Below are positions 1 to 23,084 of a DNA stretch of 23,084 bases, piece after piece. The position numbers and the translations under genes were made by a program. The notes below the pieces were generated by a model that searched no databases, had not been told where the DNA came from, and saw only the letters and a list, made by a program, of their open reading frames with translations. This stretch comes from Macrostomum lignano (Eukaryota): positions 1 to 23,084 of the forward strand of contig NIVC01002726.1 of NCBI GenBank assembly GCA_002269645.1, in the 5' to 3' direction. Every line of letters begins with the position of its first letter. Within the stretch, counting starts at the first letter, position 1.

Positions 1-525
1 ATGAAACTCTTGTACACTGACACAGACAGTTTTATTATGGACATTTCAAACAGAAGACATTTATCAGGACATGCTGCAGCAAAAAGATTTGTTTGACTTG
101 TCTGAGTGATGATGAATCTTTCAGGACACAGAATGGCGATCAAGTGTTTGACGCCACTAACAAGAAAGTGATTGGGAAAATGAAGGACGAGATTGCTGGT
201 GACATAATCACTGAATTCATTGGTTGAGAGCAAAGTCCTATTTTGTAAAATGTGAGTCGTCAGACCCAATTAAAAAATCAAAGGGAATTCCAAAACGCGT
301 GGTTAGGAAGGAAATTAATGAAGCTGAATACAGAGACGCCTTGAATTGCAACAAAAAGACATCACATGAGTTCTCAAAGCTACAATCCAAAAACCATATT
401 ATTCACACAATTCAGCAAAAAAAGATTGGACTGTCAGGTGCAGATAATAAAGATTCATTTTTGATGACAATATTAACAGTCTACCGTTCGGGCACTGGAG
501 ATTAGGTTTAGGAGATTGGGTTTAG
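1..525 (+). pseudogene. polB: Protein-primed family B DNA polymerase, C-terminal part, 4 frameshifts as given (5' end outside the window)
   Basis: Frame-corrected reading: MKLLYTDTDSFIMD/IQTEDIYQDM...FDLSE/DDESF...NKKVIGKMKDEIAGDIITEFIG/LRAKSY...KGIPKRVVRKEI...KKIGLSGADNK/RFIFDDNINSLPFGHWR, stop 523-525. Contains the catalytic YxDTDS motif and the GKMKDE, LRxKSY and KG motifs. Shifts near 46, 107, 222 and 447. Confidence 0.93.
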
Positions 526-578
526 GAGGTTGAGATTAGGTTTAGGTTTAAGAGAAAGTTTAATAAACCTCATAAAAA

Positions 579-979
579 ATGACAAAAAATAACTTTCTTG
601 AAGATTTGGCTAACGAACTGGAAATCCCAAACTTAGAGGAATATTTATGAGGGACACTCTGCCTGATTTTCCTCTAAGAAAAGGAATGCGGCATCATGAA
701 TTTTGACACCACCGATAAGCCAGGATCTCATTGGGTTTGCTGGGTGATTGATCCGATCGCAAGCACAAGTGTTATTACTTCGATAGCTATGGACGGCAGT
801 ACCAGAAGAGCTAAGAAATTATATGAAGGGAAAAAATAATAAAAAAATTTATCGCTCAGACTTTATTCTCCAAGGTCTTAGCAGTGATATTTTGCGGTGA
901 GCTGTGCATGACTGTTTTGTATGCAATGACCAAAACACGAAAGACCTACAAGGAAATTATTCTTGGCTGTGTTTCATAA
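579..979 (+). pseudogene. Adenain/Ulp1-like cysteine maturation protease, about 133 aa after correcting 5 frameshifts; not in the ORF track
   Basis: Corrected reading: MTKNNFLEDLANELEIPN/RGIFMRDTLPDFPLR/ECGIMNFDTTDKPGSHWVCW.../KCYYFDSYG/AVPEELRNYM...FILQGLSSDI/CGELCMTVLYAM...CVS*. Catalytic H (GSHW), D (FDSYG), Q and C (CG) are in the expected order. Shifts near 633, 680, 762, 794 and 892. Confidence 0.9.
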
Positions 980-1688
980 GGGTTCATTGTGAATTTCTTT
1001 GCCGACTTTCTTTCCACATAATGTTGAAGAACTTTCTCGAGTTCATTTCTCAGCTGACTCATGTCATCAGTTACCGACCATGTTCAAGTTCATTCGAATT
1101 GTTTGTTCATAAAGATCCTGAATGGTTTTGAACTCATCCTCTGAAATGAACTTATCCTCGATTGCCCTTGAAATGTACCCTATGATTGAAGTGTGCACCC
1201 CTTTCTCTTTTACTTGCTTCTCCTGTAGCTGCTTTAGTTTTTTCGCCTGTTTCGCCTAATGCTCCAGTAATTGCTGAAATAAGTCCACATGCAGCACCCA
1301 CAGAGCCGAGTGGGATTGCGATTGGGGCTGTGATGACTGGCAACGTTGAGACAGCCGCAGCAGATCCAGATAGAACAGACACAGATCCTAGAATCATATT
1401 GCTGTAGTCGAAAAATTTACAGTGGCTGTTATAGCGCTTAATTTTCTTTGTGTTGTGGAAAATATTTTTTTCAAGATCATCTCGCATTTTTTTAATCTCC
1501 ACCAGTCGAAACTGTTGAGAGTTACAAGTAATGACGGGGTAGAGTTTTTGTTGCTCATATTGAGGTGCATTCAGATTCGGTGCATTCAGGCTTTGTGTGT
1601 TCGAATTCGGTGCCATTGGGTTTGGTGCTGTCGGTATTTTAGGTTCAGCGTATTGAGACTGATCGTATAGAGAATTTTGTTGGGCCAT
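946..1688 (-). CDS. Viral membrane-hairpin protein, about 246 aa after correcting 2 frameshifts, with PTAP and LYPVI motifs
   Basis: ATG at 1688 preceded by an A-run. Hydrophobic hairpin MILGSVSVLSGSAAAV...PLGSVGAACGLISAITGAL. After a shift near 1255 it continues KQAKKLKQLQEKQVKEKGVHTSIIGYISRAIEDKFISEDEFKTIQDLY, and after a shift near 1078 SVTDDMSQLRNELEKVLQHY...PRIISL*. Confidence 0.7.
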
Positions 1689-1779
1689 TTTTTTCTCTAG
1701 AAAAAATAAAAAAAATATAAAACTATCCGGTTTGAAGATCTGTTTTCTTTTTGATAATTCCATCTGCACCGCCGGTTGT

Positions 1780-2589
1780 CTAGGCGGCTCTCGTGACGCC
1801 GGAGGATCGCGAGTCCAGCAGGCAGCGGCTGGGCGGCTGACGTTTGAGAGCGTGCCGGATTACTCCGGCGGGGTCCAGAGCTCCTTCTACTCGATCTGTA
1901 GACATGACCGGACGAGCAGTAGATTCTGCTTCATCAATAGCAATATCACGAAGATTGAGTGTTCTCTCCAGACGATCAAGCCTCCTTATTATTTTACCCC
2001 AAGAGCTATACATTCCGTTTAGATAGCTACTGTGTGATACATCCTTTCTCTTTAATGCTTCAAGTCTTTCTTTGATTCGATCATGCAACGCTGTTGACTG
2101 GTTCATGAACTCTTCTAAATTATTTACTTTACCTGTGTTGGTTGCGACGTTTTCTTTAATTCTATCATGCAACGCTGTTGACTGGTTCATGAACTCTTCT
2201 AAATTATTTACTTTAGCTGTGTTTGTGAAAACTCCTCCTTCAAGAATACGCATCCGTCTATCAGTGGAATTTCCCAGAAGATTAACTGTCGATCTTAAGC
2301 CGTTGATTAGCGAGACTATCGAAGTTATTTCTGACCTTAGTTCATTAGTTGCGTTTAACAACGGCACATAAAGCTTATCACTTTCAAACTTCTGCCTAGC
2401 TACTTTAAGCCTGAGATCTTCCATGTTTATTTGCAACTGGTGCATGGAGCGCTCTAGGGCTTTCAGTCTGTTTTTATTCAGTTTGATCTCTGGGATCTCT
2501 TCATCAGTGTTAATGTAGCGCTTGTCAAGGAAGGAAGTTGTGAGAGTGCTGTTGCCTGTAGTTGACTCACCAGCAAAATTAATAGACAT
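1780..2589 (-). CDS. Coiled-coil viral protein (269 aa), possibly a fibre or spike, with an internal 28-aa duplication
   Basis: Intact ORF with A-run ATG context, heptad-rich middle and two copies of TNT(A/G)KVNNLEEFMNQSTALHDRIKE. Function is inferred only; the GC-rich C-terminal ~40 aa may be out of frame. Confidence 0.7.
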   Translation of the reverse strand: MSINFAGESTTGNSTLTTSFLDKRYINTDEEIPEIKLNKNRLKALERSMHQLQINMEDLRLKVARQKFESDKLYVPLLNATNELRSEITSIVSLINGLRSTVNLLGNSTDRRMRILEGGVFTNTAKVNNLEEFMNQSTALHDRIKENVATNTGKVNNLEEFMNQSTALHDRIKERLEALKRKDVSHSSYLNGMYSSWGKIIRRLDRLERTLNLRDIAIDEAESTARPVMSTDRVEGALDPAGVIRHALKRQPPSRCLLDSRSSGVTRAA

Positions 2590-2605
2590 TTTTTTAAATG
2601 AAAAA

Positions 2606-3406
2606 TTAAAGTAAAATTCTTTTCTCCTTATTAATCATGACAAACTGATAGGGTTGGTTCCACTTTTCATAGCATATGTTAACAAATTCCTCCTGTGATA
2701 TTGTTCTGTTAGAGTTCTTAGCTGGATATGTAATGTGAGCTGGGGCAATGACCTCATTATAAAATCGTTTCAGTCGATCCTGTGGTATGGTTGGGAAAAG
2801 GAGAATCAAATTACAGTTACCTCTAATTGTTTTATTTGGCAGTTCAAACCAGTTTTGGGCAATGTAAATAACATTGCAATTATTATGTCTACCCCGGGTG
2901 AAATAATTTTCTATCTGTTTCTGGGGACCGGTCATGCAGTCATCGAAGACAATCAGGTGCTTTCTCCCCTTTTCTAGTTCATCAGGTTGAGGTAAGAGTT
3001 TAGTTTTAGGATCTATCTGTGGATCTCCATAAGTGAAAACTTTAATGTTTTGCCATTTTTCATTGTCTGGGATGTGCTTTGCGTATTCAGTGGCTACAAC
3101 TTCCGGGTTGCTGTTGAGGTCTTTTTGATGTCTAAAACATTGAATAATATCTTCCTTGTTGAGTTTGTTCTGTAGGCCCGCTACTAGCATTTTATACTCA
3201 TCTTGATACAGAGTGGGTGAATAGATATGTAGTGTGTCATAATCGAGGAATCCAGGTCTGAGGAGCATGTTAAAAACTCTGAAGGTTTTCCCTGACCCAG
3301 ATGAGCCAACAACAATGCATCGGAAGTGCCCTGGAATTATCTCGTTGTGAGCAAATTTTATCTGATTGCGTGTCCAGTGGGGATGAAAGTCGTTTGTGAA
3401 GTCCAT
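2606..3406 (-). CDS. A32/FtsK-HerA-type DNA packaging ATPase (266 aa)
   Basis: Walker A GSSGSGKT, Walker B LIVFDD, and TRGRHNNCNVIYIAQ (Arg finger plus conserved Gln) followed by IRGN. ORF intact. Confidence 0.95.
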   Translation of the reverse strand: MDFTNDFHPHWTRNQIKFAHNEIIPGHFRCIVVGSSGSGKTFRVFNMLLRPGFLDYDTLHIYSPTLYQDEYKMLVAGLQNKLNKEDIIQCFRHQKDLNSNPEVVATEYAKHIPDNEKWQNIKVFTYGDPQIDPKTKLLPQPDELEKGRKHLIVFDDCMTGPQKQIENYFTRGRHNNCNVIYIAQNWFELPNKTIRGNCNLILLFPTIPQDRLKRFYNEVIAPAHITYPAKNSNRTISQEEFVNICYEKWNQPYQFVMINKEKRILL

Positions 3407-3560
3407 TTTTTATGTAAAAAAACTTTTTCTTTTTAAACTTGTGTATTTAAGACGCGTGTGTCTTTTTTCGGGATGTGTATGTGTGTGTCTTTTTTCGACT
3501 AGTCCTACATCCGACTAGTCCTACACCCTCACACCTCTTTTACCGTCAGGGTGCACCAAA

Positions 3561-3939
3561 TTAGTCAAATTTAAAACCGCCTCCTTTCTTATATTCAGCT
3601 CTCATCTTTGCGTAGATGGCTGGATCGACACTATCTGCACTCGGTGCAAGGGGTTGAATATCTGGTATTGATTTCCGGGTTTCATGAACCGTATCTTTAA
3701 TCTTTTTGGCTGCTGTGACTACACTGCCGGCCGCTTCGGCAACGTTCTTGATGTTCTCTTTGTTCTCTCCAATGACCTTAAAAATCTTGGCCCCCTGAGC
3801 GATCAAATCGGCAGGGCCATTCCCAGAGCGTTCTTTTCTTGGATAGTGGCCTGCAGGGAAAAGTCCAGATCCGCGTTTAATGAGATTAAGTTCCTCTTTG
3901 TCATAGTATTTGTCAATGTCTTTTTCGAAAATAAGGCAT
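3561..3939 (-). CDS. Small virion core or membrane-lytic (protein VI-like) precursor, about 125 aa after one frameshift correction
   Basis: AAAAATG at 3939 (MPYF). After a shift near 3925 it reads DIDKYYDKEELNLIKRGSGLFPAGHYPRKERSGNGPADLIAQGAKIFKVIGENKENIKNVAEAAGSVVTAAKKIKD...KKGGGFKFD*, joining the 81-aa ORF of the track. Confidence 0.65.
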
Positions 3940-3955
3940 TTTTACTTGAAATAAA

Positions 3956-5169
3956 TTATTTTTTGTTGAACCGCGAAAGCAGAAGCTCTCTCGCCCTCTT
4001 ATCGATGTATTTTCTCTCAAGCATTTTATTGAGGATGTGAACGAACTCTTTTCTATTCTATCTTTCATTCCGGTCTTTGCCGCTCCTAGAAGAACCGCTA
4101 CTCGCTTGTAGAATTCAGGCATGCCTTTTCCGGAAGAGCTTGGTGGTGATTCGAATGATTGGTCAGAGAAGGATGTTCCTGGTGAGGGTTGCTGTAGCCT
4201 AGGTGTGAATACTCTGTCATTGATTCGCTTCATTCGTTCTGGGGAGAACTGTTCTAATTGTCGCCATTCATCTGGGCGCTGGTTTCTGTACTGGGAAATC
4301 TCATTTGGCCCTGCTTTTTCAAGCGCTTCTAGTACTTGTTCGGGTGTGATTTGTTGCTGTGGCGGTGGAGGTTGTTGTGGTTGTGGTTGCTGCTGTTGTG
4401 GTTGTTGTAGTTGTTGTTTTGGTTGCTGCTGTTGTGGTTGCTGCTGTTGTGGTTGTGGTTGTTGTGGTGGTTGTTGTGTTGGTTGTCTTATGACCTCTTC
4501 TTGATCCGGCAAACCAAACCATTGTTTAAAGTATTTGTATTTTTTAAAATTGTTCAAGACAATCCCTTTTTCATGTAAAATTTTCAAAACACCGTTGTTC
4601 TTGAGCATATCTATGTCCCTATCGAGAGCAAAGGTAACAAGATCTTTGTAATTTTTTAGCTGCTTCTCGGATCTTTTTTTCTGATTTTTAGTCATGTAAT
4701 CAAGTAAAGTTTGAGTGAAGGGGATTCGTTTAGTTTCTGCGCCTTTATTGATTGAAATAGTTTCCTTTGTCACTTCAATGTTGTAATCCGCCGGTTCCCC
4801 GGTAATATTTTTTCGCCAGGCACTAATTCCAAAAATATATTTTCCATCATCCAATACGGGGCCAAAAAAGTTATCCTTCACATTCATCTGCACTGGTTGT
4901 CCTGGTTGCTGAGCCTGTGGTTGTCCCGGTGAAGATGGGATTTTACCCAATGTGTTTTGCAAGTGGCTCTCTTGAATATCATCAACTGCTTCCTTCACAG
5001 TGTCGAGGTTTTTCTTCGCTTCTGTGTATCCGGGTTTGTGAAATTCGGTGGCTGCTTGGACGAATTCATTGTAAGATTGTTGTTCTTTGTTGATTAGCCC
5101 TGTAACTCTCTTTTCTGCCTGCGCCAGCTTTTCTAGTTCAGAGATATGATATGAACTTTTCCGCTTCAT
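3956..5169 (-). CDS. Polinton-associated protein with a polyQ/P tract; true C-terminus in another frame
   Basis: Long ORF with DNFFGPVLDDGKYIFG and a C-terminal GKGMPEFYKRVAVLLGAAKTG. Adding one A near 4050 gives EKEFVHILNKMLERKYIDKRARELLLSRFNKK* (stop 3956-3958), which leaves the next gene's start free. Confidence 0.75.
4352..4486 (-). repeat. Imperfect CAA/CAG/CCA trinucleotide tract encoding QQPPQQPQPQQQQPQQQQPKQQLQQPQQQQPQPQQPPPPQQQ
   Basis: Directly visible (gtt/gct/ggt)n run on the plus strand. Confidence 0.95.
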
Positions 5170-5197
5170 TTTTAAATATTTTTTCTTTTGTTGAAAA

Positions 5198-6489
5198 ATG
5201 AACGATCCCCTGACACCGGTTTTCTACAAAATTAACAAGCCTATTTTGAGTGATGATAGCACAATCAAAGCGACTCAGGTAAGAGTTCCCAGTCAGGAAA
5301 ATCAGAATGAAACTAATTTGGGTCCAGGTCAAACACTGACATTTACATACAATGGATGTTCGTCTTTGGTTAGTGTGCACAGTCTAAGGAGCGGCTTCTA
5401 TATGACGTATCAATTCAAAACTAAAGGAGGCGCAGACGCCGCTCATGCAAATGATGATCTACACAATGCGGATGTCGCACTAACCAGTAATTTCTGGGCT
5501 TATATGTTCAAAGAGTTTAATGTGTCCAATGGAAGTACAGAATTGGAAAGAATAGCAAACTTTGGTGTGGTCTATGATACCCAGTGCTTGATTGAGAACC
5601 CGGATTTTATTCAGATGGGGAGCGGTGCTGGATTCATCCCCAATGAACAGACAGGAGATGAGAATGACCCTGGTTACAAAAAGAGAAAGGAGAGATACAA
5701 CTATGCTCTTGTTGGTGAGAACGATGCTGCTAAGAATCCGCTGTTTAGGTCTGTAGATATTTTTGTACCTTTGAGGTTTATGAGTGGTCTCTGTAATAGT
5801 TTCAATCGGTTGACAAGCAACTTTAGCTACACATTTAGACTGACTAGAGATGATCGGAACAGAGGAATTTGGTCGGGGGCCAATCATACATCGATGGAGA
5901 TTAAGCCAACTAGCGTGGAGCTGTACTTAGAAATTATTGAGCCCAAGACTGCACTCAAAGCTGAATACTTGAAGGCGATTGAGAAAGACATTGATGTTGC
6001 TACAGCTTATATGTGCAGAGATGAGCGGAATGACGCAAGACACAATATTTGCATTAAAGAAGGCTCCTGTAGCAATCCAAGGTACATTATTGTCACTATG
6101 AGGAATACAACTAATGTAGGTAGATATCTACATGGAAACATTCGATCGATTCAACATGAGATCAGTGACAATTTATACCCTGCATTGCCACAAAATGGGA
6201 ATTTCTCGGAGAACAAGATTAGTAAGTTTTACAATGAACTGTCGGACTTGGCTGTCAAAGAGAATAACGGTATTGTTTTGACAACCTTGCAGTATAAAAA
6301 CTATATCCAATATTTGGTGTTGATGTGACTGCTAGACAAATGCCTACAGACAATAGCCCTGTTAACATTGTGACTAATATCGAGTGGAAAGAATTTGGTG
6401 CCGCAACGGCTGTTGATCTGTTTATTATCTATGCATTTGAGAGGAAAATCAAGGTTAATATGATCAATAACTCGTCTAGTAAAGTTTGA
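5198..6489 (+). CDS. Major capsid protein (double jelly-roll, Polinton PY type), about 430 aa after one frameshift correction
   Basis: 376-aa ORF with a beta-rich pattern (IFVPLRFMSG, FRLTR, PTSVELYL, NPRYIIV, LYPALP). Adding one A in the run at 6296-6300 extends it YKKLYPIFGVDVTARQ...DLFIIYAFERKIKV...SKV* (stop 6487-6489). Directly upstream of the minor capsid gene. Confidence 0.85.
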
Positions 6490-6511
6490 ATAATTTTTTT
6501 CAATAAAAAAA

Positions 6512-7369
6512 ATGGAAGCCATAGCCGAAAGACTAAACAACATTGTTTCACACTCTAAGGAGAGCATTCCAATCACTGTAGCGGGTCGCATTACTGAGTC
6601 AAACGGAATCTTCATTCAAAAATTGGAGCAACCACTTCGTTTGGATCCCGAGGCGAATTACCACGTCTATCTCAATGATTTCACTGGGTGGTCAAATGTT
6701 CCCAATGTGACAGCGGAAAATAACAAGTTTTATTACAAATGGAAGCGTACTACAACAGAGGTTGTGATATTTCCTGTCAGCACACAGAGCGTGGATACTT
6801 ATAATTACTTCTTGGAGAAAGTCTTCACTAAACGAAAGCATTTTGAGATACCGGATGAAAGCAAACCAGAAAATAAACTGTTCCCTGTTAGATTAACTTA
6901 TGATCTAACTGTCATGAGAGTTATCTTGCAAGTTCATAAGGACGCAGAGGTAGAGTTTAAAGATGGCACTTGGTATCGCGAGTTGGGATTTGAAAAGAGA
7001 GTTTATGGTGGCGCCACAGACCAAAGCCCGCTGCAGGCGCCTGGCACTGTTGCTGTGTCCCGGCTAATATCCGGTATGTACTTGGCGCCAAATATCGCTG
7101 ACATTGTCAAAGGTTTGAATATATTAATTCGTAGCAATCTGAGCCATGATTGGATATTCAAAGGCAAACGAACCAACATACTTTTTAACATTTCAAACTC
7201 TGTTGCTGGTGGCAAAATGCTTGTGCAAAAGCCGAACCCCGTGAAAAGAGTGATTCTGAGTAATAGAGAGATACATGAAATCGTTCTGCAGTTTGAAACA
7301 GAGGATGGAGTTGGTGTCGATTTTAACGGGGAAGAGTTTGTGCTAACAATTGTTATAGAGAGAATGTGA
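6512..7369 (+). CDS. Minor capsid protein (penton, single jelly-roll), 285 aa
   Basis: N-terminal LEQPLRLD...YHVYL...WSNVPNVTAENNKFYY and C-terminal ILIRSNL...KGKRTNILF...P...IHEIVLQFETEDGVGVDFNGEEFVLTIVI patterns typical of Polinton minor capsid proteins. Intact ORF. Confidence 0.87.
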   Translation: MEAIAERLNNIVSHSKESIPITVAGRITESNGIFIQKLEQPLRLDPEANYHVYLNDFTGWSNVPNVTAENNKFYYKWKRTTTEVVIFPVSTQSVDTYNYFLEKVFTKRKHFEIPDESKPENKLFPVRLTYDLTVMRVILQVHKDAEVEFKDGTWYRELGFEKRVYGGATDQSPLQAPGTVAVSRLISGMYLAPNIADIVKGLNILIRSNLSHDWIFKGKRTNILFNISNSVAGGKMLVQKPNPVKRVILSNREIHEIVLQFETEDGVGVDFNGEEFVLTIVIERM

Positions 7370-7430
7370 GTCGTCTTCAGATTTATAAAATTACGATATA
7401 AACCGCTAGGTACAACCTTGTAGTTGCCAA

Positions 7431-7670
7431 CTACAACTGCCTTATAACTTCTGCAAAGTTATAGTAGCTGTCGTAATCTTTTACGTAGGTTACTCCATAC
7501 TTATGAAACCAGTGTCTTTGGAGAGCTAGATTAATATTAGGGACATTGATATCAATGCCGGGCCAATATTTTCTCATGTACTCGCTGCATTCTAGTTTGC
7601 ATTGGTATTTGGATTTGTACAATGGATTAGGCTGAGTATAATAAGAACCTGGAGAGACAACTGGAAACAT
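7431..7670 (-). CDS. Small Tyr-rich viral ORF of unknown function (79 aa)
   Basis: Shares the TTTT-N4-AAAAATG start context of the other viral genes and is convergent with the minor capsid gene. Confidence 0.5.
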   Translation of the reverse strand: MFPVVSPGSYYTQPNPLYKSKYQCKLECSEYMRKYWPGIDINVPNINLALQRHWFHKYGVTYVKDYDSYYNFAEVIRQL

Positions 7671-7699
7671 TTTTAGAGAAAATTTAGATTTTTTTCAAA

Positions 7700-8124
7700 G
7701 GGTGAGCACCCTGCGCTGAGGGTTTAAAGTCTTTGGGATCTGGTTTCGCTTTGCAAATTGAATGTGGGGAGAAGAATGCAGATTATTTTCTGATTGTTTC
7801 GAACATGCTATGGGTGGATGTCAGTGGATTATGTAGGACACTTGTTATGCTCTGATAATATAGATGTATTTTGGGGGATAGGTTAGGAGGATTATGGATG
7901 ACGTTTTCGGAGCTGCTATGCTCAGAATAACAGTAGGACACCGGTTGTGCTCTGATTCTGTCGGGGATAATACGGATGGATTTAATGGGATTATGTTCGA
8001 AGTTTTCGGAGCAAGGGCGACCCCCCTTTTTTTCTGATTCTGTCGGGGATAATATGGATGGATTTAATGGGATTATGGAGGACGTGAAAAATTTTGCACC
8101 AGAAGCCCCCTCATGCATTCTACT
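7700..8124. repeat. Probable right terminal inverted repeat region of the Polinton, with a 45-bp subterminal direct repeat
   Basis: Non-coding. 7951-7995 and 8033-8077 are 44/45 identical. Inward-reading end is AGTAGAATGCATGAGGGGGCTTC. The partner TIR is not in the window, so the inner limit is unknown. Confidence 0.55.
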
Positions 8125-8480: not shown

Positions 8481-9360
8481 GATCTCTAATGGGAGATTAA
8501 TATCTGGGTAATGAGATCTCTAATGGGAGATTAATATCTGGGTAATGAGATCTCTAATGGGAGATTAATATCTGGGTAATGAGATCTCTAATGGGAGATT
8601 AATATCTGGGTAATGAGATCTCTAATGGGAGATTAATATCTGGGTAATGAGATCTCTAATGGGAGATTAATATCTGGGTAATGAGATCTCTAATGGGAGA
8701 TTAATATCTGGGTAATGAGATCTCTAATGGGAGATTAATATCTGGGTAATGAGATCTCTAATGGGAGATTAATATCTGGGTAATGAGATCTCTAATGGGA
8801 GATCAACACCTGGATTATGGGATATGTAATGGGAGATCAACACCTGGATTATGGGATCTGTAATTGGAGATTAACATTTGGATGATGGGATCTGTAATTA
8901 GCGATTAACACTTGGATGATGGGATCTGTAATTGAAGATTATTATCTGGGTAATGGGATCTTTTACCTGGATAATGAGATCTCTAATGGGAGATTGACAC
9001 GTAGATGATAGGATCTTTAATTTGAGATTAACACCTGGATGATGGGATCTCTAATTGTAGATTAACACCTCGACGGTGGGATCTCTAATTGGAGATTAAC
9101 ACCTGGATGATAGGATATTTAATGGGAGATTAACACCTGGATGATGGGATCTCTAATGGGAGACTAACACCTGGATGATGGGATCTCTAATTGGAGATTA
9201 ACACCTGGATGATGGGATCTCTAATGGGAGACTAACACCTGGATGATGGGATCTCTAATTGGAGATTAACACCTGGATGATGGGATCTCTAATTGGAGAT
9301 TAACACCTGGATGATGGGATCTCTAATTGGAGATCAACACCTGCATGATGGGATCTACAA
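8481..9360. repeat. 34-bp minisatellite in WDR59-like intron 2, about 26 units
   Basis: Unit GGGAGATTAATATCTGGGTAATGAGATCTCTAAT starting at 8491, 8525, 8559 and so on. About 9 identical copies to ~8800, then the variant GGGAGATTAACACCTGGATGATGGGATCTCTAAT. Confidence 0.95.
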
Positions 9361-10969: not shown

Positions 10970-11393
10970 TCATCCCAAGACCGCAAGCATCCCCCAGATA
11001 GCAAGCATCCCCCAGATAGCAAGCATCCCCAAGATAGCAAGCATCCCCAGATAGCAAGCATCCCCAAGATAGCAAGCATCCCCCAGATAGCAAGCGTCCC
11101 CCAGATAGCAAGCATCCCCCAGATAGCAAGCATCCCTCAGATAGCAAGCATCCCCCAGATTTCAAGCATCCCCCAGATAGCAAGCATCCCCCGGATAGCA
11201 AGCATTCCCCAGAGAGCAAGCATCCCCCAGATAGCAAGCATCCCTCAGATAGCAAGCATCCCCCAGATAGCAAGCATCCCCCAGATAGCAAGCATCCCTC
11301 AGATAGCAAGCATCCCCCAGATAGCAAGCATCCCCCAGATAGCAAGCATCCCCCAGATAGCAAGCATCCCCAAGATAGCAAGCATCCACCAGA
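10970..11393. repeat. 18-bp tandem repeat, about 23 units
   Basis: Unit CCCCCAGATAGCAAGCAT, with one 17-bp unit near 11045. Confidence 0.95.
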
Positions 11394-11477: not shown

Positions 11478-14378
11478 CTTTTATGTTTAACAGGGTGGCT
11501 CTTTTATGTTATACATTGTGGCTCTTTTATGTTATACATTGTGGCTCTTTTTTGTTCTACGCTCGTACATGGTAACTCTTTTATGTTTGATACGGTGGCT
11601 TTTCAATGTCTGACATGGTGGCTCTTCTATGTTTGACATGGGGGCTCTTCTATGTTTGACATGGGAGCTCTTCTATGTTTGACAAAGTGGCTTTTTAATG
11701 TTTGACATGGTGGCTCTATTATGTTTGACATGGTGGCTCTATTATGTTTGACATGGTGGCTCTTTAATGTTCAAAAAGTTGGCTCTTTTATGTTTGACAT
11801 GGTGGCTCTTTAATGTTTGACATGGTGGCTCTTTAATGTTTGACATGGTGGCTCTTTAATGTTAGACAAAGTAGCTCTTTAATGTTTGACATGATGGCTC
11901 TTAAATGTTAGACATGGGGGCTCTTTACTTTTTGACATGGTGGCTCTTTAATGTTGGACATGGTGGCCTTTAATGTTAGACATGGTGGCTCTTTAATGTT
12001 CGACATAAAGTCACTTATATGTTTGACATGGTGGCTCTTTAATGTTTGACATGGTGGCTCTTTTATGTTCGACATGGTGTCGCTTCAATGTTCGACATGG
12101 AGTTACGTATATGTTTTACATGGTGACTCTTTTATGTTCGACATGGTGGCTCTTTAATGTTTGACATGGGGTCTCTTCAATGTTTGACATGGAGTTACGT
12201 ATATGTTTGACATGGTGGCTCTTTAATGTTTTACATGGTGGCACTTTCATGTTTGACCTGGTGGCTCTTTAATATTTGACATGTTGGCTCTTTTATGTTT
12301 GACATGGTGGCTCTTTTATCTTTGACATGGTGGCTCTGTAATGTTCGACATGGAGTCATGTATATGTTTCACATGGTAGCTCTTAAATGTTCGACATGGT
12401 GGCTCTTTAATGTTCAACATGGAGTCATGTATATGTTTGACATGGTGGCTCTTAAATGTTCGACATAGTGGCTCTATAATGTTTGACATGGTGGCTCTTT
12501 AATGTTCGACATGGCGTCATGTATATGTTTGACATGGTAGCTCTTGAATGTTCAACATGGAGTCATGTATATGTTTGACATGGTGGCTCTTAAATGTTCG
12601 ACATGGTGGCTCTTTAATGTTTGACATAGTGTCTCTTTACTGTTTGACATGGAGTCATGTATATGTTTGACATGGTGGTTCTTTAATGTTAGACATGGTG
12701 GCTCTTTTATGTTTTGCATGGTGGCTCTTTTATGTTCGACATGGTGTCTCTTCAATGTTTGACATGGCGTCATGTATATGTTTGACATGGATGCTCTTGT
12801 ATTTTTAACATGTTGACTCTTTAATTTTCGAAATGGTGGCTCTTAATTGTCTAACATGGAGTCACGTATATGTTTGACATGGAGTCATGCATATGCCTGA
12901 TATGGTAGCTCTTTAATGTTTTACATGGAGTCACGTATATGTTTCACATGTTGGGTATTTTATGTTTGACATGGTGGTTCTTAAATGTTCGACATGGTGG
13001 CTCTTTAATGTTTTACATGGTGGCACTTTCATGTTTGACCTGGTGGCTCTTTAATGTTTGACATGGTGGCTCTTTAATATTTGACATGGTGGCCCTTTTA
13101 TGTTCGACATGGTGGCTCTTCAATGTTTGACATGGAGTCACGTATATGTTTTACATGGTGGCTCTTTTATGTTCGACATGGCGTCATGTATATGTTTGAC
13201 ATGGTAGCTCTTGAATGTTCAACATGGAGTCATGCATATGTTTGACATGGTAGCTCTTGAATGTTCAACATGGAGTCATGTATATGTTTGACATGGTGGC
13301 TCTTAAATGTTCGACATGGTGGCTCTTTAATGTTAGACATAGTGTCTCTTTAATGTTTTGCATGGTGGCTCTTTTATGTTCGACATGGTGTCTCTTCAAT
13401 GTTTGACATGGAGTCATGTATATGTTTGACATGGTGGCTCTTGTATTTTTAACATGTTGGCTCTTTAATGTTCGACATGGTGGCTCTTTAATGTCTAACA
13501 TGGAGTCACGTATATGTTTGACATGGAGTCATGTATATGTCTGATATGGTAGCTCTTTAATGTTTTACATGAAGTCACGTATATGTTTCACATGGTGGCT
13601 ATTTTATGTTTGACATGGTGGTTCTTAAATGTTCGACATGGTGGCTCTTTAATGTGTTACATGGTGGCACTTTCATGTTTGACCTGGTGGCTCTTTAATG
13701 TTTGACATAGTGTCTCTTTAATGTTTGACATGGAGTCATGTATATGTTTGACATGGTAGCTCTTGAATGTTCGACATAGAGTCATGTATATGTCTGCCAT
13801 GGTGGCTCTTTAATGTTAGACATGGTGGCACTTTCATGTTTGACCTGGTGGCTCTTTAATGTTTGACATGGTGGCTCTTTAATATTTGACATGGTGGCCC
13901 TTTAATATTTGACATGGTGGCCCTTTAATGTTCGACATGGTGGCTCTTCAATGTTCGACATGGAGTCATGTATATGTTTGACCTGGTTGCTCTTTAATGT
14001 TTGACATGGTGGCTCTTTAATGTTCGACATGGTGGCTCTTTTAGGGTTGAAATGGTGGCTCTTTAATGTTTGACATGGTGGCTTTTTAATGTTCGACATG
14101 GTGGCTCTTTTATGTTCGACATGGCGTCATGTATATGTTTGACATGGTAGCTCTTGAATGTTCAACATGGAGTCATGTATATGTTGGACGTGGTGGCTCT
14201 TTAATGTTCGACATGGTGGCTCTTTAATGGTTGACATGGTGGCTCTTTAATGTTCGACATGGTAGCTCTTTAATGTTCGACATGGTGGCTCTTTAATGGT
14301 CGACATGGTGGCTCTTTAATGGTCGACATGGTGGCTCTTTAATGTTTGACATGGTGGCTCTTTAATGTTTGACATTGT
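11478..14378. repeat. 23-bp satellite array, about 125 units, two main monomer types with higher-order structure
   Basis: GACATGGTGGCTCTTTAATGTTT (catgg at 11821 and 11844) and variant GACATGGAGTCATGTATATGTTT. Confidence 0.96.
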
Positions 14379-14421
14379 GCTTTTTTGTGTTTAGCATTTT
14401 GTGTTTTTAAGATTTTTGAAT

Positions 14422-14505: not shown

Positions 14506-16047
14506 TCTTGAATTGTGGCCCTTATAATTTAATTTTTATAGCAAATCGGTTAGAGTAAAAAGTTATGACATAATCAATTTCTCAGTCAGCCAGTATCAGT
14601 GTCAATTTAAGTTAGCAATATTGTTACACAATTTAAATCAAGTTTTGTGTGCATTTGTTCGGCACTGTTTTCAACTGGTTGTGATGTAATCTTTATCACA
14701 ATTGGAATTCAGTCAGTCAGTTTTTTCTCTAGCATTCTTACAATGCATTTCAGGTCGAAAGAGCTGCTTGACCTTTGCAAAAAAGCATGTTTTTCGAATA
14801 TTTAATCCCTTTAAAATTGAGCAATTTCTTAGCCAAGATGCATGTACCGTCCCAGGAAAATTTCTGATCGAATGGTGCAAGTTTGAAGAAAATCGATTGA
14901 GCCATTTTTTCTGAAATCTATCGCATACCTACCTACCTACCCACAGACAACTCATTTTTAGTATATAGGACAAACACATATGTATACACTTTATAATGCA
15001 AATTTTATTATAAAACATCTGAAAATAAATTTAAACATTAGAAAAGGCCCATTAAGACTTTAACTCTATTCAGAGATCTGAGTACTATAACTTAATATAT
15101 ACTATGTAGCTTATAGGCCAGAAAAAATTCATGGTATAAGTATTAATAGATTAGCTGATACATACTATACATATATCAGCATCTATACATACATAAATAC
15201 TATACAATGAGATGGAAGGCCTCACTTAGTTCAATAGATATGATGGCAGCAAAGAGTTTGTGCTGCTCTGCGTGTGTATTTATATAATTACAAACAGTGT
15301 GAGATTGAGGGGCCTAGGGAGGTGCAAAAAAGTAGCGTGGCATGATAGGCTACACCAACCCCCCTTCCTGGCTTAGCGAGCTGGCTAGCTTGGTGTGCAC
15401 CTACCCCACCTCAGCTAGACAGAGGTTGGGGGGTTTCCAGTGTGACTGCACTGGTGCTGCCGGTTGCATATAGTCTGGCTGCCACAACAAACAAAAATAG
15501 ATAAAAAGGTGGCAAATGGGCAATCTCCCAGTTTAATACATTAAATTATTTGCAATTTTTAATTAAGTCATTATGAGGTCATGATAAATATCAAGCAAGC
15601 AAGTCAATAAGTCAGAAAGTCAATTAAGCAAGTCAATAATAGTGTGCCACCTAGTAGTTAAAGTACTAAGACATATCCAATCATGGCCTTGTTTGTACTA
15701 TGCTTGACTATGTTTAGCACCTAATGGCCCTCACAATAAACACCTTGGTGAGGTGATACTTTCAATGAAAGAACTTATTAATAGATTTATCTATCTCTAT
15801 CCCACTTCTAAGGCTACCAAGCTTTATGGGATAGTTGAGCAAATACTGACAGTGACAGCAAATATCATAACAATTTTGTTTAGTCTATGGCAGTCTAATA
15901 GGATAGTCAATGTAATACTTATTATTCAATCTGGTATATAGGTATATTGTATGCCTAGAGATAGACAAAATCTAGCAACTAGGTGATAATTAGATAGGTG
16001 TAAAGAAGCTGCACTTTCTAATGGCCTTTTAATATCCTACAGGTAAG

Positions 16048-16540
16048 ACTAGACTAACTAATGCCAGGGGTGTGGGGGTGGCCAGCCCCCCACTAGACCA
16101 TTAAACTAACTAATGCCAGGGGCATGGGGGGCAGCGAGCCCCCCACTATTTTATTAGAGGCAGGGGGTTGTGTGCACCCTGGCGCACTTTAAGCGACATT
16201 GGCACACAACTGGCGAGAGGCATTACTGCCCATTCCACCGACTCCCCTGAGTAGGCATATAAGCACATGGATATGTATGCAGGAGTGTACAGTGGCCCTA
16301 ACTTTATATTATTGTTAGGCATGTACACTTCACTGCGCCTTGGGGGTTGGCTCTCAAGGCCATTAATTGCACGATCAAAGCCAAGCCGAGATTCCAATTC
16401 AGCCCCAAATTAATGTGACTGCACTTGGAATCGAGCCTGGGTCACTAGCACACCAGAGCAGCTGCGCTACCACTGGGCTATGCCCCCCTTGCCCCCCACT
16501 ATACCACTAGACTAACTAATGCAAGGGGTGTAGGGGGGCT
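16048..16540. repeat. Three ~50-bp GC-hairpin units (ACTAACTAATGCCAGGGG...GGGGG...AGCCCCCCACTA) interrupted by a SINE
   Basis: Units at 16048-16096, 16105-16148 and (partial) 16506-16540. Confidence 0.7.
16150..16490 (-). mobile_element. tRNA-derived SINE (~340 bp) with a 12-bp target-site duplication
   Basis: Head GGGGGCATAGCCCAGTGGTAGCGC...GGCTCGATTCC (A box and variant B box), ends in CTAATAAA, flanked by GCCCCCCACTAT at 16138-16149 and 16491-16502. Confidence 0.75.
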
Positions 16541-16999
16541 TTTTAGCTCTTAATTTGGGTGAAACACATAGGTCATAGCTATAAAAGATAAAAACACAAT
16601 ATAACCATCATCCCGTCTTTGAAGACAATAGCATCTTCATTCACTAGTTAATGAAGACAGTCTTTTTGCCCCAGTGAGCTTTGGGTTGGAATTTTGTAAT
16701 ACCTAATGTTGTATCAATTATTTAGAGACTTCCAAGTTCCAAGTCATTATTAACACTGATGCTCCTAATATTTTGTGTCATGACTCATGTCATACATAAA
16801 GTTAGCCTAATAGATAAATAAGGTGAGTGTTGCAATTTTACATATACATTTGGTATTAACCTCTTCTAAATAGAAGAGGATTTTATTCATCTCCATTCCA
16901 GTTGGATGGTAAACAGCACTTACCATAGACTATTCCCTTTAGCAGAATGGTTTGCTAAGTCTATGGCTATTCTAATCTAATAAAAAGACATTGACTAAG

Positions 17000-18253
17000 A
17001 ATAAGGCCAAAAACTAAGAACGAGTACTGGAGCACAGACAGTTACTATAGTGCTCTGTACTTTCAAGCACCTCAAGCTCTCTCTAGAGACTGCTTCAAGC
17101 AGCTACTTGGTCTGCTCCATTTCTACGATTGCGCTAAGAATCTAATTGTCAATGATCCTCTCTTTAAGATCCATCCATTGCTGCAGGCTTTGAGAGATGC
17201 TTGCATTAATGTGTATAGGCCTAAGGAGGATATGAGCATGGATAAGTCTTTGGTGTTGTACAAAGGTCACCTGCGCTTCAAACAATATATTCCAACAAAG
17301 CAGGCTAAGTATGGAATAAAGCTATATTGTGCATGTGAGGCCAAATCAGGCTACCTGTACAACTTCTGCATTCACTTAACCCCAGAGGAGAACCACTGGT
17401 TTGATGAACAGTTGCAGGGAGACAATCCGTCCTTTAGTGAGAAGATTGTTATTGAGCTCTGCTACAACTAGCTGCACCAAGGCTACTGCATCTTTGTCAA
17501 CAAATGGTTTGGTTCCTATTGGCTGTCAGAGTACTTGCTCACTCAAGGAATGCACCTGACTTGTACTATCTGGGCCAACCAAGGTATGCCAATTGAGCTC
17601 AGACAGCTGCACATTCCACCTAATGATGTCACCTTCATGCACAAAGATAGGATGCTAGCTGTCAAGATTGTTGAACAAAAGGAGAGTGGCCTGAAGACTC
17701 TATATTTGCTAGACACAAATGAGGTGACTGAGAGTGTTCAAACCAGATGCACGGTTTGTAAAGGAGCAGAAACAGTGGTGCAGAAGAGCAGATCAGTTCT
17801 CACCTATTATTGGTGCATGGGTGGTGTTGACAGAATGGACAGTCATCTACAGCCTCATCTGCCAGGGAGGAAAACTATGTAAGTGGTTTTTTAAGCTTGG
17901 CTTGCACCTATTTCTTCAAATGATTCATAACACTTGGATTATGTATAGCTGGTGCAATGGAGAGAAAACATTTGCCAAGTTTCTTAGGCCAGCATTTGGT
18001 AGCTGGTGGAGCATACCAGAAGGAGCGAGCAGGAAGCACCCAGTCACTGCCATCCAAGCCACTCCAGGTGGCCAAGTCAGTCCACACTTTCTAATGAAGA
18101 TTGTGGTGTGGGACAGTAAGCCAAGACCCAACAAAGGACTGCCATGTCTGCTACAGAGCTGGAAGCAGCAAGTGCATGGTCTATTGCTTTCCTGAGTGTC
18201 CAGGGGAACCAGGGCTCTGCTTGGAAGCCTGTTTTCAGCAATGGCATACCTGA
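17000..18253 (+). pseudogene. piggyBac (PGBD4-like) transposase fossil
   Basis: EYWSTD...LSRDCFKQLLGLLHF...DPLFKIHPLL...MSMDKSLVLYKGHLRFKQYIPTKQAKYGIKLY...SGYLYNF; FVNKWF; MGGVDRMDSHL...KWFFKL; C-terminal CHVCY...ECPGEPGLCLEACFQQWHT*. Stops at 17469 and 17880, frameshifts, and the second catalytic Asp reads Asn. TIRs not found. Confidence 0.9.
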
Positions 18254-19447
18254 TCTTTAACTGCGATTTTGACTGTCTGCCTAAATGAATCTACATATAT
18301 TTGAAGGCAACATATTCACTCAAACTTAGTCAAAATATAATGCAAGTCATTATATTTTAATGTAGTTTATATGTTTACATGAGTTAGTATGTTTATTTAA
18401 AGTTTAAAGTCGTCTAAACACTATCACAATGTTCTTTTTTGCATTTTGGAGTACTTTTGCATATAAATGTACAATCTGTACAATCAGCTTACTTTTGTTT
18501 TACTTTGTTAAAATATCTTGTTAAAGTATGATTTTCTCCTCAGTCAAGTTGTTTCTAGACTGTGAATGATCTGTAGCAGATTTCAACCAACTGCAGTATA
18601 AAAGGCAAATGATTTAGGCTGGAGCCAAATACAATGGAGCAATTAGTTTCTCTCAAATTTGTCTTTGCCAGTGCCAGTTTAGTCCATTAAAGTAAGTAAC
18701 AAAAGTAAAATATCCATTAGTGGTCCTGTTTCTAATGTTTATAAATATTAAGCTTCAATTGACTTTTGGCATAGAATACAATTTCAAAAATTCATCCTAA
18801 TAATGTTTTGCACTAGGGCAACAGGAAAGTAACTATTTTTTGTTGGAAATTTGATCAAGCAATCAAAAGAGTATATTTCTATGAAAAGGTACTTTTTTCC
18901 ATTTTTCAAATATTTAAACATGTTTTGCTTTTTCAAGAAAAATCATTACAATACCTTCAAAGTATAGTTAGTTTGGAATTAAATGACAGCATTTAATTGT
19001 TTCTTTCATATTCCAAAAATTATAATGAGCACTTTTCCTCAAAGCAGTTTGAGATCATGATTTTTAGTCTTTTGTCTATAACTTCATTACTTAAAATGTT
19101 TAAGAATTGAAAATTTCCACACTTGTATATCTTTGAATTGTGTATCAAATGGTGCATAGTATGTATGTTTAACTATTAGCAGTATAGAAAAAATAATAAA
19201 AAACTAAAAGTACATTCCTAACTTTTCATTTTTTGCTACCAAAGTGCCAAATTTTTGTTACAGTTGAAATAAAACAACCCAATAATGTTATGCATCTTTG
19301 TAGGGCACACCTATAACCCTTGAACATTTTTAGCTTGAGTTTTAATGTGCATAAGGAAATGTACTTTTATAAAGAAATAATCTTACGACAAACATTTCAA
19401 CTGGAGCCTGTTCCTTTTTTTCTGCAGTGAATCCTTACAAAACTATA

Positions 19448-19832
19448 ATAATAATAATAATAATAGTTACGTCCCATGCCAGCCATGGGAGTGGCAAAGA
19501 GGGGAGAGCATCAAATTGCACATTTCAGAGCTAGGTCTCTAATGTGCTTCACACAGGCCACCTGGCTGGGTGCTTGCGCATCTTCAAAAAGGTGGTTGAT
19601 ATAGCAGGCTGATTGTCCCTAGCCATACCTGCATGTCCCTGTAGGGTCCAAAGTAGGATATCCTGCAATGGCTCTGGGCAATAGACTTCAGCCTGGATGA
19701 CATATCTGGCAAGCCATAGATGCCGCTGACTCAGCAGGGCAGAAGGCCGCATCAGGCCTGTGCGCTTGTACAGGGACTCAGTTGTCTCACTACTAGGGCT
19801 GTGGTGGGCGCCAAAAGTGGCGCGGACTAGGG
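19448..19832 (-). mobile_element. 5'-truncated RTE-like non-LTR retrotransposon fragment with (TAT)6 tail and 11-bp TSD
   Basis: Peptide ESLYKRTGLMRPSALLSQRHLWLARYVIQAEVYCPEPLQDILLW fits the LY...S..+..RRL+LAGH+.R...P...LLW pattern C-terminal to RTE-clade RT. ACAAAACTATA at 19437-19447 and 19833-19843. Confidence 0.75.
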
Positions 19833-22800: not shown

Positions 22801-23084
22801 ACACCTATAATAAAGTATAGTAAAGAGCAACTCAAGCAGAAATTCTTTGAGTTGCAAGCAGTCTTTGGGAACAATCAATCTGCTTGTTGGGTACTAAAAA
22901 GAGTTGGAACATAATAATAATAATTGATTGCATGTGCCCTAATCGGCAAATGTGCAATTGAAAGCTCAGCTGCAGCTATTGCACAACCATCTGAAGGCTG
23001 CATATGGCTGTTTAGTCCAAGGACTGGGGGGGGGGTCGCCACACAAGTGGATCTTGTTCCAGTGGAATCTGGAATCGAACTCCA

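What the first reader, a model, noticed from the sequence alone, without database searches (positions are those of the whole stretch)
1..8124. Endogenous Polinton-type virus with a complete virion morphogenesis module
Protease, packaging ATPase, MCP and penton are all present, together with pPolB, five accessory ORFs and a probable TIR end. It therefore looks like a virus able to form particles rather than a bare transposon. CpG dinucleotides are abundant (for example 1770-1900), unlike the decayed host repeats in the same window, which suggests a young insertion. The layout is PolB/PRO on plus, a five-gene minus block, then MCP/penton on plus.
Basis: partly seen in the sequence, partly recalled or inferred. 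Interest (0 to 1): 0.78.

Follow-up and report, generated by a model that had tools for sequence, protein, structure and literature searches.

The report
Young multicopy Polinton virus, damaged copy
This is the right half of a Polinton, a well-known kind of virus-like DNA element in animal genomes; this copy has a broken main capsid gene, but its many young sister copies show gene swapping and fold-back forms that hint at how such elements multiply.

Summary
Window 1-8124 is the right half of a 16.7-kb Polinton/Maverick (adintovirus-type) insertion. The same insertion, assembled again on contig C907, has an integrase, the rest of pPolB, PLA2-like and pX-like genes, a 402-bp TIR (99%) and a 6-bp TSD. 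MCP and penton models match double and single jelly-roll capsid proteins. This gene set has been known since 2014.

Two corrections. This copy is not complete: its MCP frame ends at 376 of 431 codons, and a second insertion site shares that break, so it is probably real. The PolB and protease breaks look like assembly noise. CpG content does not date the insertion: other host flanks are equally CpG-rich. TIR, TSD and copy identity show youth.

The family is more interesting than the copy. It has two capsid types (MCP 83% identical, dN/dS 0.08) on a nearly uniform PolB-protease block, with all four ATPase/capsid combinations. Left arms copy the right end to varying lengths, and one such form sits at 7 sites. 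Two integrated mirror genomes lack PolB and integrase. This fits recombination between free-replicating genomes and integration in trans. Virions are not shown.

The parts
1..525 (+). [quoted passage not shown]
   Evidence: YTDTDS motif at the contig start; the open 460-aa frame of the same insertion on C907 has 3315 relatives at E<=1e-10, top ones 41-48% identical, many with PF03175 and PF02945; 4 of 5 window/C907 indels here are private to the window
579..979 (+). Adenain-like maturation protease (133 aa in C907 and other copies); broken in the window assembly
   Evidence: Peptidase_C5 E 1.6e-4, 21.9 bits, cut-off 21.3; adenovirus protease E 0.003; 5 of 5 indels private to the window
990..1763 (-). 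Accessory ORF with a central hydrophobic segment (218-241 aa in the longest copies); window ATG frame 1152-1763 ends early
   Evidence: Atlas look-alikes are unnamed mollusc and NCLDV clusters at 0.92-0.93, recognition below threshold, so weak
1780..2589 (-). Accessory ORF, 269 aa, coiled-coil-like, with an 84-bp internal repeat
   Evidence: only sub-threshold coiled-coil matches
2606..3406 (-). A32/FtsK-type genome-packaging ATPase, 266 aa, open; 'A' allele
   Evidence: Pox_A32 E 7.5e-7; Walker A GSSGSGKT visible in the translation; A and B alleles about 80% identical in DNA
3561..3941 (-). Small accessory ORF (about 126 aa), conserved in copies
   Evidence: no family match above cut-off
3913..5169 (-). 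Gln/Pro-rich accessory ORF (about 400 aa); at least three divergent alleles in the family
   Evidence: no usable Atlas hit
5198..6489 (+). Double jelly-roll major capsid protein gene, frame-broken near 6.3 kb (ATG frame ends at 6328, 376 aa; 431 aa in open copies)
   Evidence: PF21738; model of a full-length sister ORF matches PBCV-1 Vp54 (E 5.5e-9), Sputnik and mavirus MCPs; break shared with C907, L007 and L010
6512..7369 (+). Penton (single jelly-roll minor capsid protein with an inserted domain), 285 aa, open
   Evidence: Foldseek: mavirus penton E 1.7e-5, adenovirus penton bases; VIA-align Z 9.6, rmsd 10.1, 215 aligned to mavirus penton; 285 aa in 33 of 36 copies with a start found
7431..7670 (-). 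79-aa ORF next to the TIR, conserved in both subfamilies and duplicated at the left end in copies with longer TIRs
   Evidence: 85-95% identity in B-type copies; dN/dS 0.25 over 78 codons; no family match
7723..8124 (.). Right terminal inverted repeat, ending ...TTCTACT-3'
   Evidence: 402 bp, 99% identical to the left end of the same insertion on C907
8125..8130 (+). 6-bp target-site duplication GAAGGG
   Evidence: the same 6-mer precedes the left end on C907

Best explanation
The window holds the right half of one integrated copy of a recently expanded Polinton/Maverick (polintovirus) family. Likely cycle: (1) a free linear genome is copied from its TIR ends by its own protein-primed polymerase, by strand displacement (established model, inferred here); (2) the RVE integrase inserts it with a 6-bp TSD (shown by the TSDs); (3) protease, ATPase, MCP and penton build adenovirus-like particles at some stage of the lineage's history (folds and purifying selection shown, particles inferred). 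Several genomes replicate in the same cell and switch templates. That would swap ATPase and capsid alleles, re-copy the left end from a right end, and yield fold-back genomes, which are then integrated with enzymes from other copies (patterns shown, mechanism inferred). This particular copy belongs to an MCP-broken sub-lineage that reached at least two sites, so it spreads without a capsid of its own, by complementation or inside the cell.
For: Same insertion on C907: 16,718 bp, TIR 99%, TSD, INT (rve E 4.4e-9), PLA2-like (E 4e-13), pX-like (E 3.9e-7), EndoVII-bearing pPolB in sister copies. TSDs exact in 16 of 19 copies with both ends fetched, one mismatch in 2, unmatched in 1. 40 of 40 scored penton hits (349 candidates) are 98-100% identical; 24 distinct right flanks among 37 loci. 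A versus B subfamily: dN/dS 0.077 for MCP, 0.037 for penton; ATPase pN 0.07 against saturated pS 0.77. All four ATPase x capsid combinations among 22 typed copies of 24 (A/A 4, B/A 9, B/B 8, A/B 1), while the PolB end, protease and TM ORF are 96-100% alike. One left-arm junction occurs in 7 contigs with 7 different flanks, so it arose before integration and was propagated. The MCP break is shared by the window, C907, L007 and L010 and by none of the other 31 loci; L007/L010 share 32 of the window's 49 minority bases.
Against: No particle, free genome or transcript is shown. No full-length open PolB frame was found in any of 13 copies checked (longest 686 aa); indel noise could explain this but it is not proven. 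Structure models are of low to moderate confidence (pLDDT 55 and 64, TM-scores 0.25-0.45). Each mirror genome is known from one site only, so it may have formed after integration. dN/dS comes from one pair of sequences per gene. The searches rank by score, so intact copies are over-represented.
Confidence: 0.75

Rival explanations
1. One reading: this copy itself is an intact provirus able to make particles, and every break, the MCP one included, is sequencing error.
For: The contig start is noisy: 19 gaps (17 of 1 bp, 15 in homopolymers) against 8 mismatches over 5.6 kb between two assemblies of the same insertion; 16 of 24 indels are private to the window; short-read contigs of 4 runs disagree with the window at the 12 listed indel places in 1-1255. 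A different break in the same small region occurs in all four assemblies of another insertion, so the site could be error-prone.
Against: The MCP break is identical in two assemblies of this insertion and in two assemblies of a second insertion that is its closest relative over this region; 30 other loci lack it.
Confidence: 0.12
2. The family now spreads as a purely intracellular transposon. The capsid genes are a recent inheritance from a viral ancestor, and the mosaics, extended arms and mirror forms come from gene conversion or break repair between integrated copies.
For: MCP-broken copies reached new sites. Hundreds of near-identical copies give ample substrate for ectopic conversion. Mirror forms are single-site and one has its centre in both orientations among three assemblies. 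Post-integration conversion leaves TSDs intact.
Against: 66 of 67 scored B-type MCP hits and most A-type hits are open. The same left-arm junction at 7 different sites needs replication after the rearrangement. Purifying selection between A and B capsids is strong, though it may predate entry into this host.
Confidence: 0.3
3. The element needs a helper virus (virophage-like or PLV-like) and is reactivated only during infection by a large DNA virus.
For: Such a life style is reported for integrated virophages and proposed for PLVs (search listings only: PMC10945749, PMC11296320).
Against: It encodes its own pPolB and integrase and its polymerase relatives are from animal Polintons; no evidence for a helper was sought or seen.
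Confidence: 0.1
4. The mosaic, extended-arm and mirror structures are assembly artefacts of a high-copy repeat.
For: The assembly is indel-rich and holds the same insertion up to four times.
Against: Mosaic and mirror copies carry matching TSDs at both ends; 20%-divergent blocks cannot come from polishing; the left-arm junction recurs at 97-100% identity in 7 contigs.
Confidence: 0.08

Closest known systems
Polintons/Mavericks ('Polintoviruses'; Krupovic et al. 2014, PMC4028283, passages read)
   Same: pPolB, RVE integrase, adenain-like protease, A32 ATPase, DJR MCP, penton; TIRs; 6-bp TSD; ordinary copies 14.9-20.1 kb
   Different: Nothing in kind. New sequences: nearest database MCPs 69-75% (unnamed, short contigs), named PolB relatives 41-44% (corals, a sea slug).
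Adintoviruses (Starrett et al. 2021, PMC8502044, parts 1-3 of 6 and supplementary Fig. S2 text read)
   Same: Animal elements with PolB, integrase, adenain, FtsK, hexon, penton, a PLA2-like gene and a pX-like gene; exchange of virion modules between lineages is described there
   Different: The Pfam PLA2 and pX matches fall in two separate ORFs here, whereas the paper describes PLA2X as one protein with a C-terminal pX-like domain. Alpha versus Beta class not resolved. No gasdermin-like match found by Pfam.
Vertebrate Mavericks (Barreat & Katzourakis 2021, PMC8097293, passages read)
   Same: 6-bp TSD, end motif close to 5'-(AGT)2, purifying selection on capsid genes taken as a sign of particle formation; particles not observed
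   Different: Those are mostly low-copy and degraded; this family has hundreds of candidate loci, many young and open, with a different gene order.
Coral polintoviruses (PMC11131425, passages read) and nematode Polintons (10.1101/2023.08.22.554363, passages read)
   Same: Hundreds of copies per invertebrate genome; exchange of genes between Polintons within one species
   Different: In nematodes the swapped gene is pPolB on a shared capsid background; here capsid and ATPase alleles vary on a nearly uniform PolB-protease block. Extended arms and mirror forms did not appear in the passages retrieved (I did not search these two texts for them).
Fold-back or copy-back defective genomes of strand-displacing linear replicons (adenovirus panhandle repair, linear plasmid hairpin derivatives; recalled, not tested)
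   Same: One end re-copied from the other through the terminal repeat; loss of replication genes; dependence on a helper genome
   Different: Here they are integrated with TSDs; no interference or packaging is shown.

Membership tests
Polinton/Maverick | Protein-primed family B polymerase | tested here: met
   PF03175 E 4.9e-10 in a sister copy; KLANNSVYGK and YTDTDS motifs on C907; 3315 relatives. No copy gave a full-length open frame.
Polinton/Maverick | RVE (retroviral-like) integrase | tested here: met
   344-aa open ORF in the same insertion on C907, rve E 4.4e-9, above cut-off
Polinton/Maverick | Long terminal inverted repeats with AG/AGT-type ends | tested here: met
   402 bp, 99%; ends 5'-AGTAG...CTACT-3'; vertebrate end motifs quoted in PMC8097293
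Polinton/Maverick | 6-bp target-site duplication | tested here: met
   GAAGGG for this insertion; exact in 16 of 19 copies
Polinton/Maverick | Protease, packaging ATPase, DJR MCP and SJR penton | tested here: met
   met for the family; the MCP gene of this copy is frame-broken
Polintovirus (bona fide virus) | Production of infectious particles | not testable with these tools
   Only indirect: dN/dS 0.04-0.08 on capsid genes
Adintovirus Alpha or Beta class | PolB class (archetypal PF03175 versus divergent) and matching virion module | tested here: inconclusive
   PF03175 match weak and absent for the C-terminal 460 aa, which leans Beta by the paper's wording; a PLA2 gene leans to an Alpha-type module; reference sequences could not be read from the supplement; BFVD search gave no close adintovirus; no tree built
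Adintovirus Alpha or Beta class | N-terminal OTU-like domain of PolB | not tested
Polinton-like virus (PLV) or virophage | MCP in a PLV or virophage clade; PLVs mostly lack pPolB plus RVE integrase | tested here: inconclusive
   Both pPolB and integrase are present, which fits Polintons by definition (PMC5499653, abstract listing); no MCP phylogeny run; no relative in IMG/VR by pattern scan

The most novel reading that the evidence does not exclude
This genome keeps a record of an animal polintovirus replicating outside the chromosomes as a mixed population: two capsid types recombining on one replication block, ends re-copied from the opposite end over 0.4 to 4.9 kb, and fold-back, capsid-only defective genomes and MCP-broken genomes integrated in trans, like defective-interfering particles. 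With hundreds of candidate loci, many young, the host would be a good place to look for animal Polinton virions, which PMC8097293 (2021) said had not been observed.
Probability: 0.35. Interest if true: 0.68.

Novelty: new member of a known kind. Interest (0 to 1): 0.36.

Why it matters
The flagged feature, a Polinton with all four virion genes, is ordinary. What could matter is the family. Whether animal Polintons make particles, and how they replicate between integrations, is a long-standing open question. A genome with many young, open copies of two capsid types, recombinants between them and integrated fold-back forms gives concrete predictions: free linear genomes with the same junctions, and nuclease-protected DNA of both capsid types. 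It also warns that frame breaks in noisy long-read contigs cannot be read as decay without a second representation, and that CpG content is no clock in this genome.

Tried and rejected
CpG as an age marker: rejected (further along C907 the host DNA reaches o/e 0.9-1.0).

Expression: no RNA holder listed; runs guessed to be RNA cover the whole element as contigs, which shows neither transcription nor silence. Contig depth was not used as copy number.

Pfam on the window's three 5' frames read through stops with X gave nothing. NCBIfam and PHROGs gave no above-threshold names for accessory ORFs. Atlas gave one weak lead and one blank. IMG/VR scan found no relative. Cluster look-up gave no informative names for 10 MCP relatives.

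The idea that mirror genomes multiplied as such: not supported. The C1652 junction recurs only in two other assemblies of the same site, and the C633 junction once among 40 scored of 542 candidates.

The left-arm 'second penton' as a real second gene: rejected. It is a 3' fragment (residues 110-285) of the B-type penton, 94-97% identical in DNA.

Literature: five of eight searches bear on prior description; their listings showed no paper on mirror or extended-TIR Polintons. Only listings were seen, and subscription journals are not covered, so absence from print is not established. Module mosaicism in this virus group is described (10.64898/2026.10.13.758929, abstract only; its supplements are closed). 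Earlier scan notes: nothing returned. No phylogeny was built.
Full report
WHAT IS THERE. The window is the start of contig C2726 of a 764-Mb genome, so the element is cut by the contig end. The ATPase passes the Pfam cut-off for Pox_A32. A model of a full-length sister MCP (pLDDT 55) retrieves PBCV-1 Vp54, Sputnik and mavirus MCPs at E 1e-7 to 1e-9. The window's penton model (pLDDT 64) retrieves mavirus and adenovirus pentons (VIA-align Z 9.6). The models are modest, but the top ranks are filled by the expected folds. The MCP profile has 2513 relatives at E<=0.001 among cluster representatives.

THE MISSING HALF. A 701-bp penton probe gave 349 candidates; the 40 scored were 98-100% identical. 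One copy, on C907, shares the window's right flank (99.7% over 6.6 kb) and is the same insertion. It is 16,718 bp, with a 402-bp TIR at 99% and GAAGGG on both sides. Its left half holds an open 344-aa RVE integrase, a PLA2-like ORF and a pX-like ORF; PolB frames in sister copies match PF03175 and endonuclease VII. Of 19 copies with both ends fetched, 16 have exact 6-bp TSDs, 2 have one mismatch and 1 has none. Ordinary copies measure 14.9-20.1 kb. This is a Polinton by every defining feature I could test.

IS THIS COPY INTACT? As assembled, no. The PolB end and protease run through three frames and the MCP frame stops at 6328. Window and C907 differ by 19 gaps and 8 mismatches over 5.6 kb, 15 gaps in homopolymers. 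Of 24 indels between them over the whole overlap, 16 are private to the window (9 in PolB and protease), 7 to C907, 1 undecided. Short-read contigs of four runs also disagree with the window at the 12 listed places in its first 1.3 kb. So those breaks are most likely consensus errors at a contig end (inference). The MCP break differs: it is shared by the window, C907 and two assemblies of a second insertion (L007, L010; flank CGGCTG), which also share 32 of the window's 49 minority bases, while the other 31 of 34 loci differ there. I read it as a real inherited lesion carried to at least two sites. A caveat: another insertion has a different break in the same 50 bp in all four of its assemblies, so the spot may be prone to mutation or to error. 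No full-length PolB frame was seen in 13 copies; with this noise level that cannot be judged.

AGE. CpG o/e is 0.71 in the element and 0.33 in the rest of the window, but 0.63-1.07 in the flanks of six other copies. The host is not CpG-poor throughout, so CpG does not date the insertion. Youth follows from 99% TIR identity, intact TSDs, roughly 1-2% divergence between copies in MCP and penton and 24 distinct right flanks among 37 loci.

THE FAMILY. A protein search gave 665 MCP candidates; of 97 scored, 30 are of the window's type (A) and 67 of a second type (B, 83-85%), 66 of these open (ranking favours intact copies). Between A and B, dN/dS is 0.077 for MCP and 0.037 for penton, and ATPase synonymous sites are saturated (one pair each). 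The capsid genes were therefore under long purifying selection, the same argument Barreat and Katzourakis used for vertebrate Mavericks (PMC8097293, passages). Among 24 copies typed gene by gene, the PolB end, protease and hydrophobic ORF are 96-100% alike wherever present, while ATPase and capsid alleles occur in all four combinations (22 typed for both). That requires recombination. Left arms repeat the right end over varying lengths: about 0.4 kb in this insertion, about 0.7 kb including the 79-aa ORF, and 23, 56 or 176 codons into the penton gene. The longest form uses a B-type end and has one junction in 7 contigs with 7 different flanks; three of these are known to carry A-type capsids. 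At the extreme, two elements are mirrors with 4.7-4.85-kb arms, two capsid modules, no integrase, no or almost no PolB, and matching TSDs. Each is known from one site.

MECHANISM. Shown: integration with 6-bp TSDs; recent multi-site expansion; recombination between subfamilies; propagation of a rearranged end and of an MCP-broken lineage to several sites. Inferred: protein-primed strand-displacement replication of free linear genomes, where a displaced strand pairs through its TIRs or with a sister genome and one end is re-copied from another (by analogy with adenovirus panhandles, recalled; the single-stranded intermediate model for Polintons is cited in PMC4061559, passages). Also inferred: complementation in trans, and particles. 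The main rival is intracellular transposition with conversion between integrated copies. It explains single-site mirrors equally well, but not on its own the 7-site junction, which needs copying after the rearrangement.

COMPARISON AND NOVELTY. Polintons with MCP, penton, ATPase and protease were described in 2014 (PMC4028283, passages); PLA2- and pX-like genes and virion-module exchange in adintoviruses in 2021 (PMC8502044, parts 1-3 of 6 and one supplementary figure text; its sequence files could not be read, so class assignment stays open); hundreds to thousands of copies in corals (PMC11131425, passages); gene exchange within nematode Polintons (10.1101/2023.08.22.554363, passages); general module mosaicism (10.64898/2026.10.13.758929, abstract). 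The nearest named PolB relatives are from corals and a sea slug at 41-44%, which points to an invertebrate-type lineage; the host was not identified. I saw no description of extended-arm or mirror Polintons in the listings, which is weak evidence of absence.

VERDICT. A real feature and a new member of a known kind. Interest 0.36, raised above routine by the population structure of the family.

Noticed in passing
G000 C1652:28604-39932 (L065, L066) and C633:134497-147606 (L067, L068): Mirror elements of 11.3 and 13.1 kb with 4.7- and 4.85-kb inverted arms (99.85%, 99.3%), two capsid modules, no integrase and no or only the last part of PolB, and matching 6-bp TSDs. For the first, the centre lies in opposite orientations in C1652 versus C276 and C3945.
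   Followed up: partly
L034:5641-6298, L036, L044, L085-L088; shorter in L048 and L062: Left arms carry an inverted copy of a B-type right end reaching 23, 56 or 176 codons into the penton gene; the longest form occurs at 7 different sites.
   Followed up: yes
G000, 67 of 97 scored MCP hits: A second subfamily with MCP 83-85% and penton 79% identical to the window's type, almost all with open MCP frames.
   Followed up: partly
L041:5212-9131; L048:3560-7890; L034:3440-5640: Other mobile DNA nested inside copies: about 3.9 kb with a reverse-transcriptase-like ORF (DIRS-like by recall) inside PolB of C175, about 4.4 kb inside the left TIR of C33, and 2.2 kb with a 352-aa ORF in the left arm of C819.
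   Followed up: no
L070:1653 (G000 C2829): One copy's terminus joins directly into the protease gene region of another copy: an element inserted into or fused with a sister element.
   Followed up: no
left arms, L034:7232-7915, L040:1600-4280, L042:5735-6088, L072:3507-4175: Variable cargo between the PLA2-like gene and the left TIR; a 227-aa ORF in some A-type copies has a 34%-identical relative in B-type copies; no family match.
   Followed up: partly
window 15000-23084: AT-rich host stretch with strong CpG depletion (o/e 0.1-0.25 in many bins, GpC o/e 1.2-1.8), unlike other host flanks; collinear with C907 at 99.7%, so not a join error. It holds short ORFs at 17232-18195 that look like a decayed piggyBac transposase (recalled, untested).
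   Followed up: partly
window 8481-9356, 10983-11393, 11567-14379: Tandem arrays with 34-bp, 18-bp and 23-bp units (the last 122 copies).
   Followed up: no
   Followed up: partly
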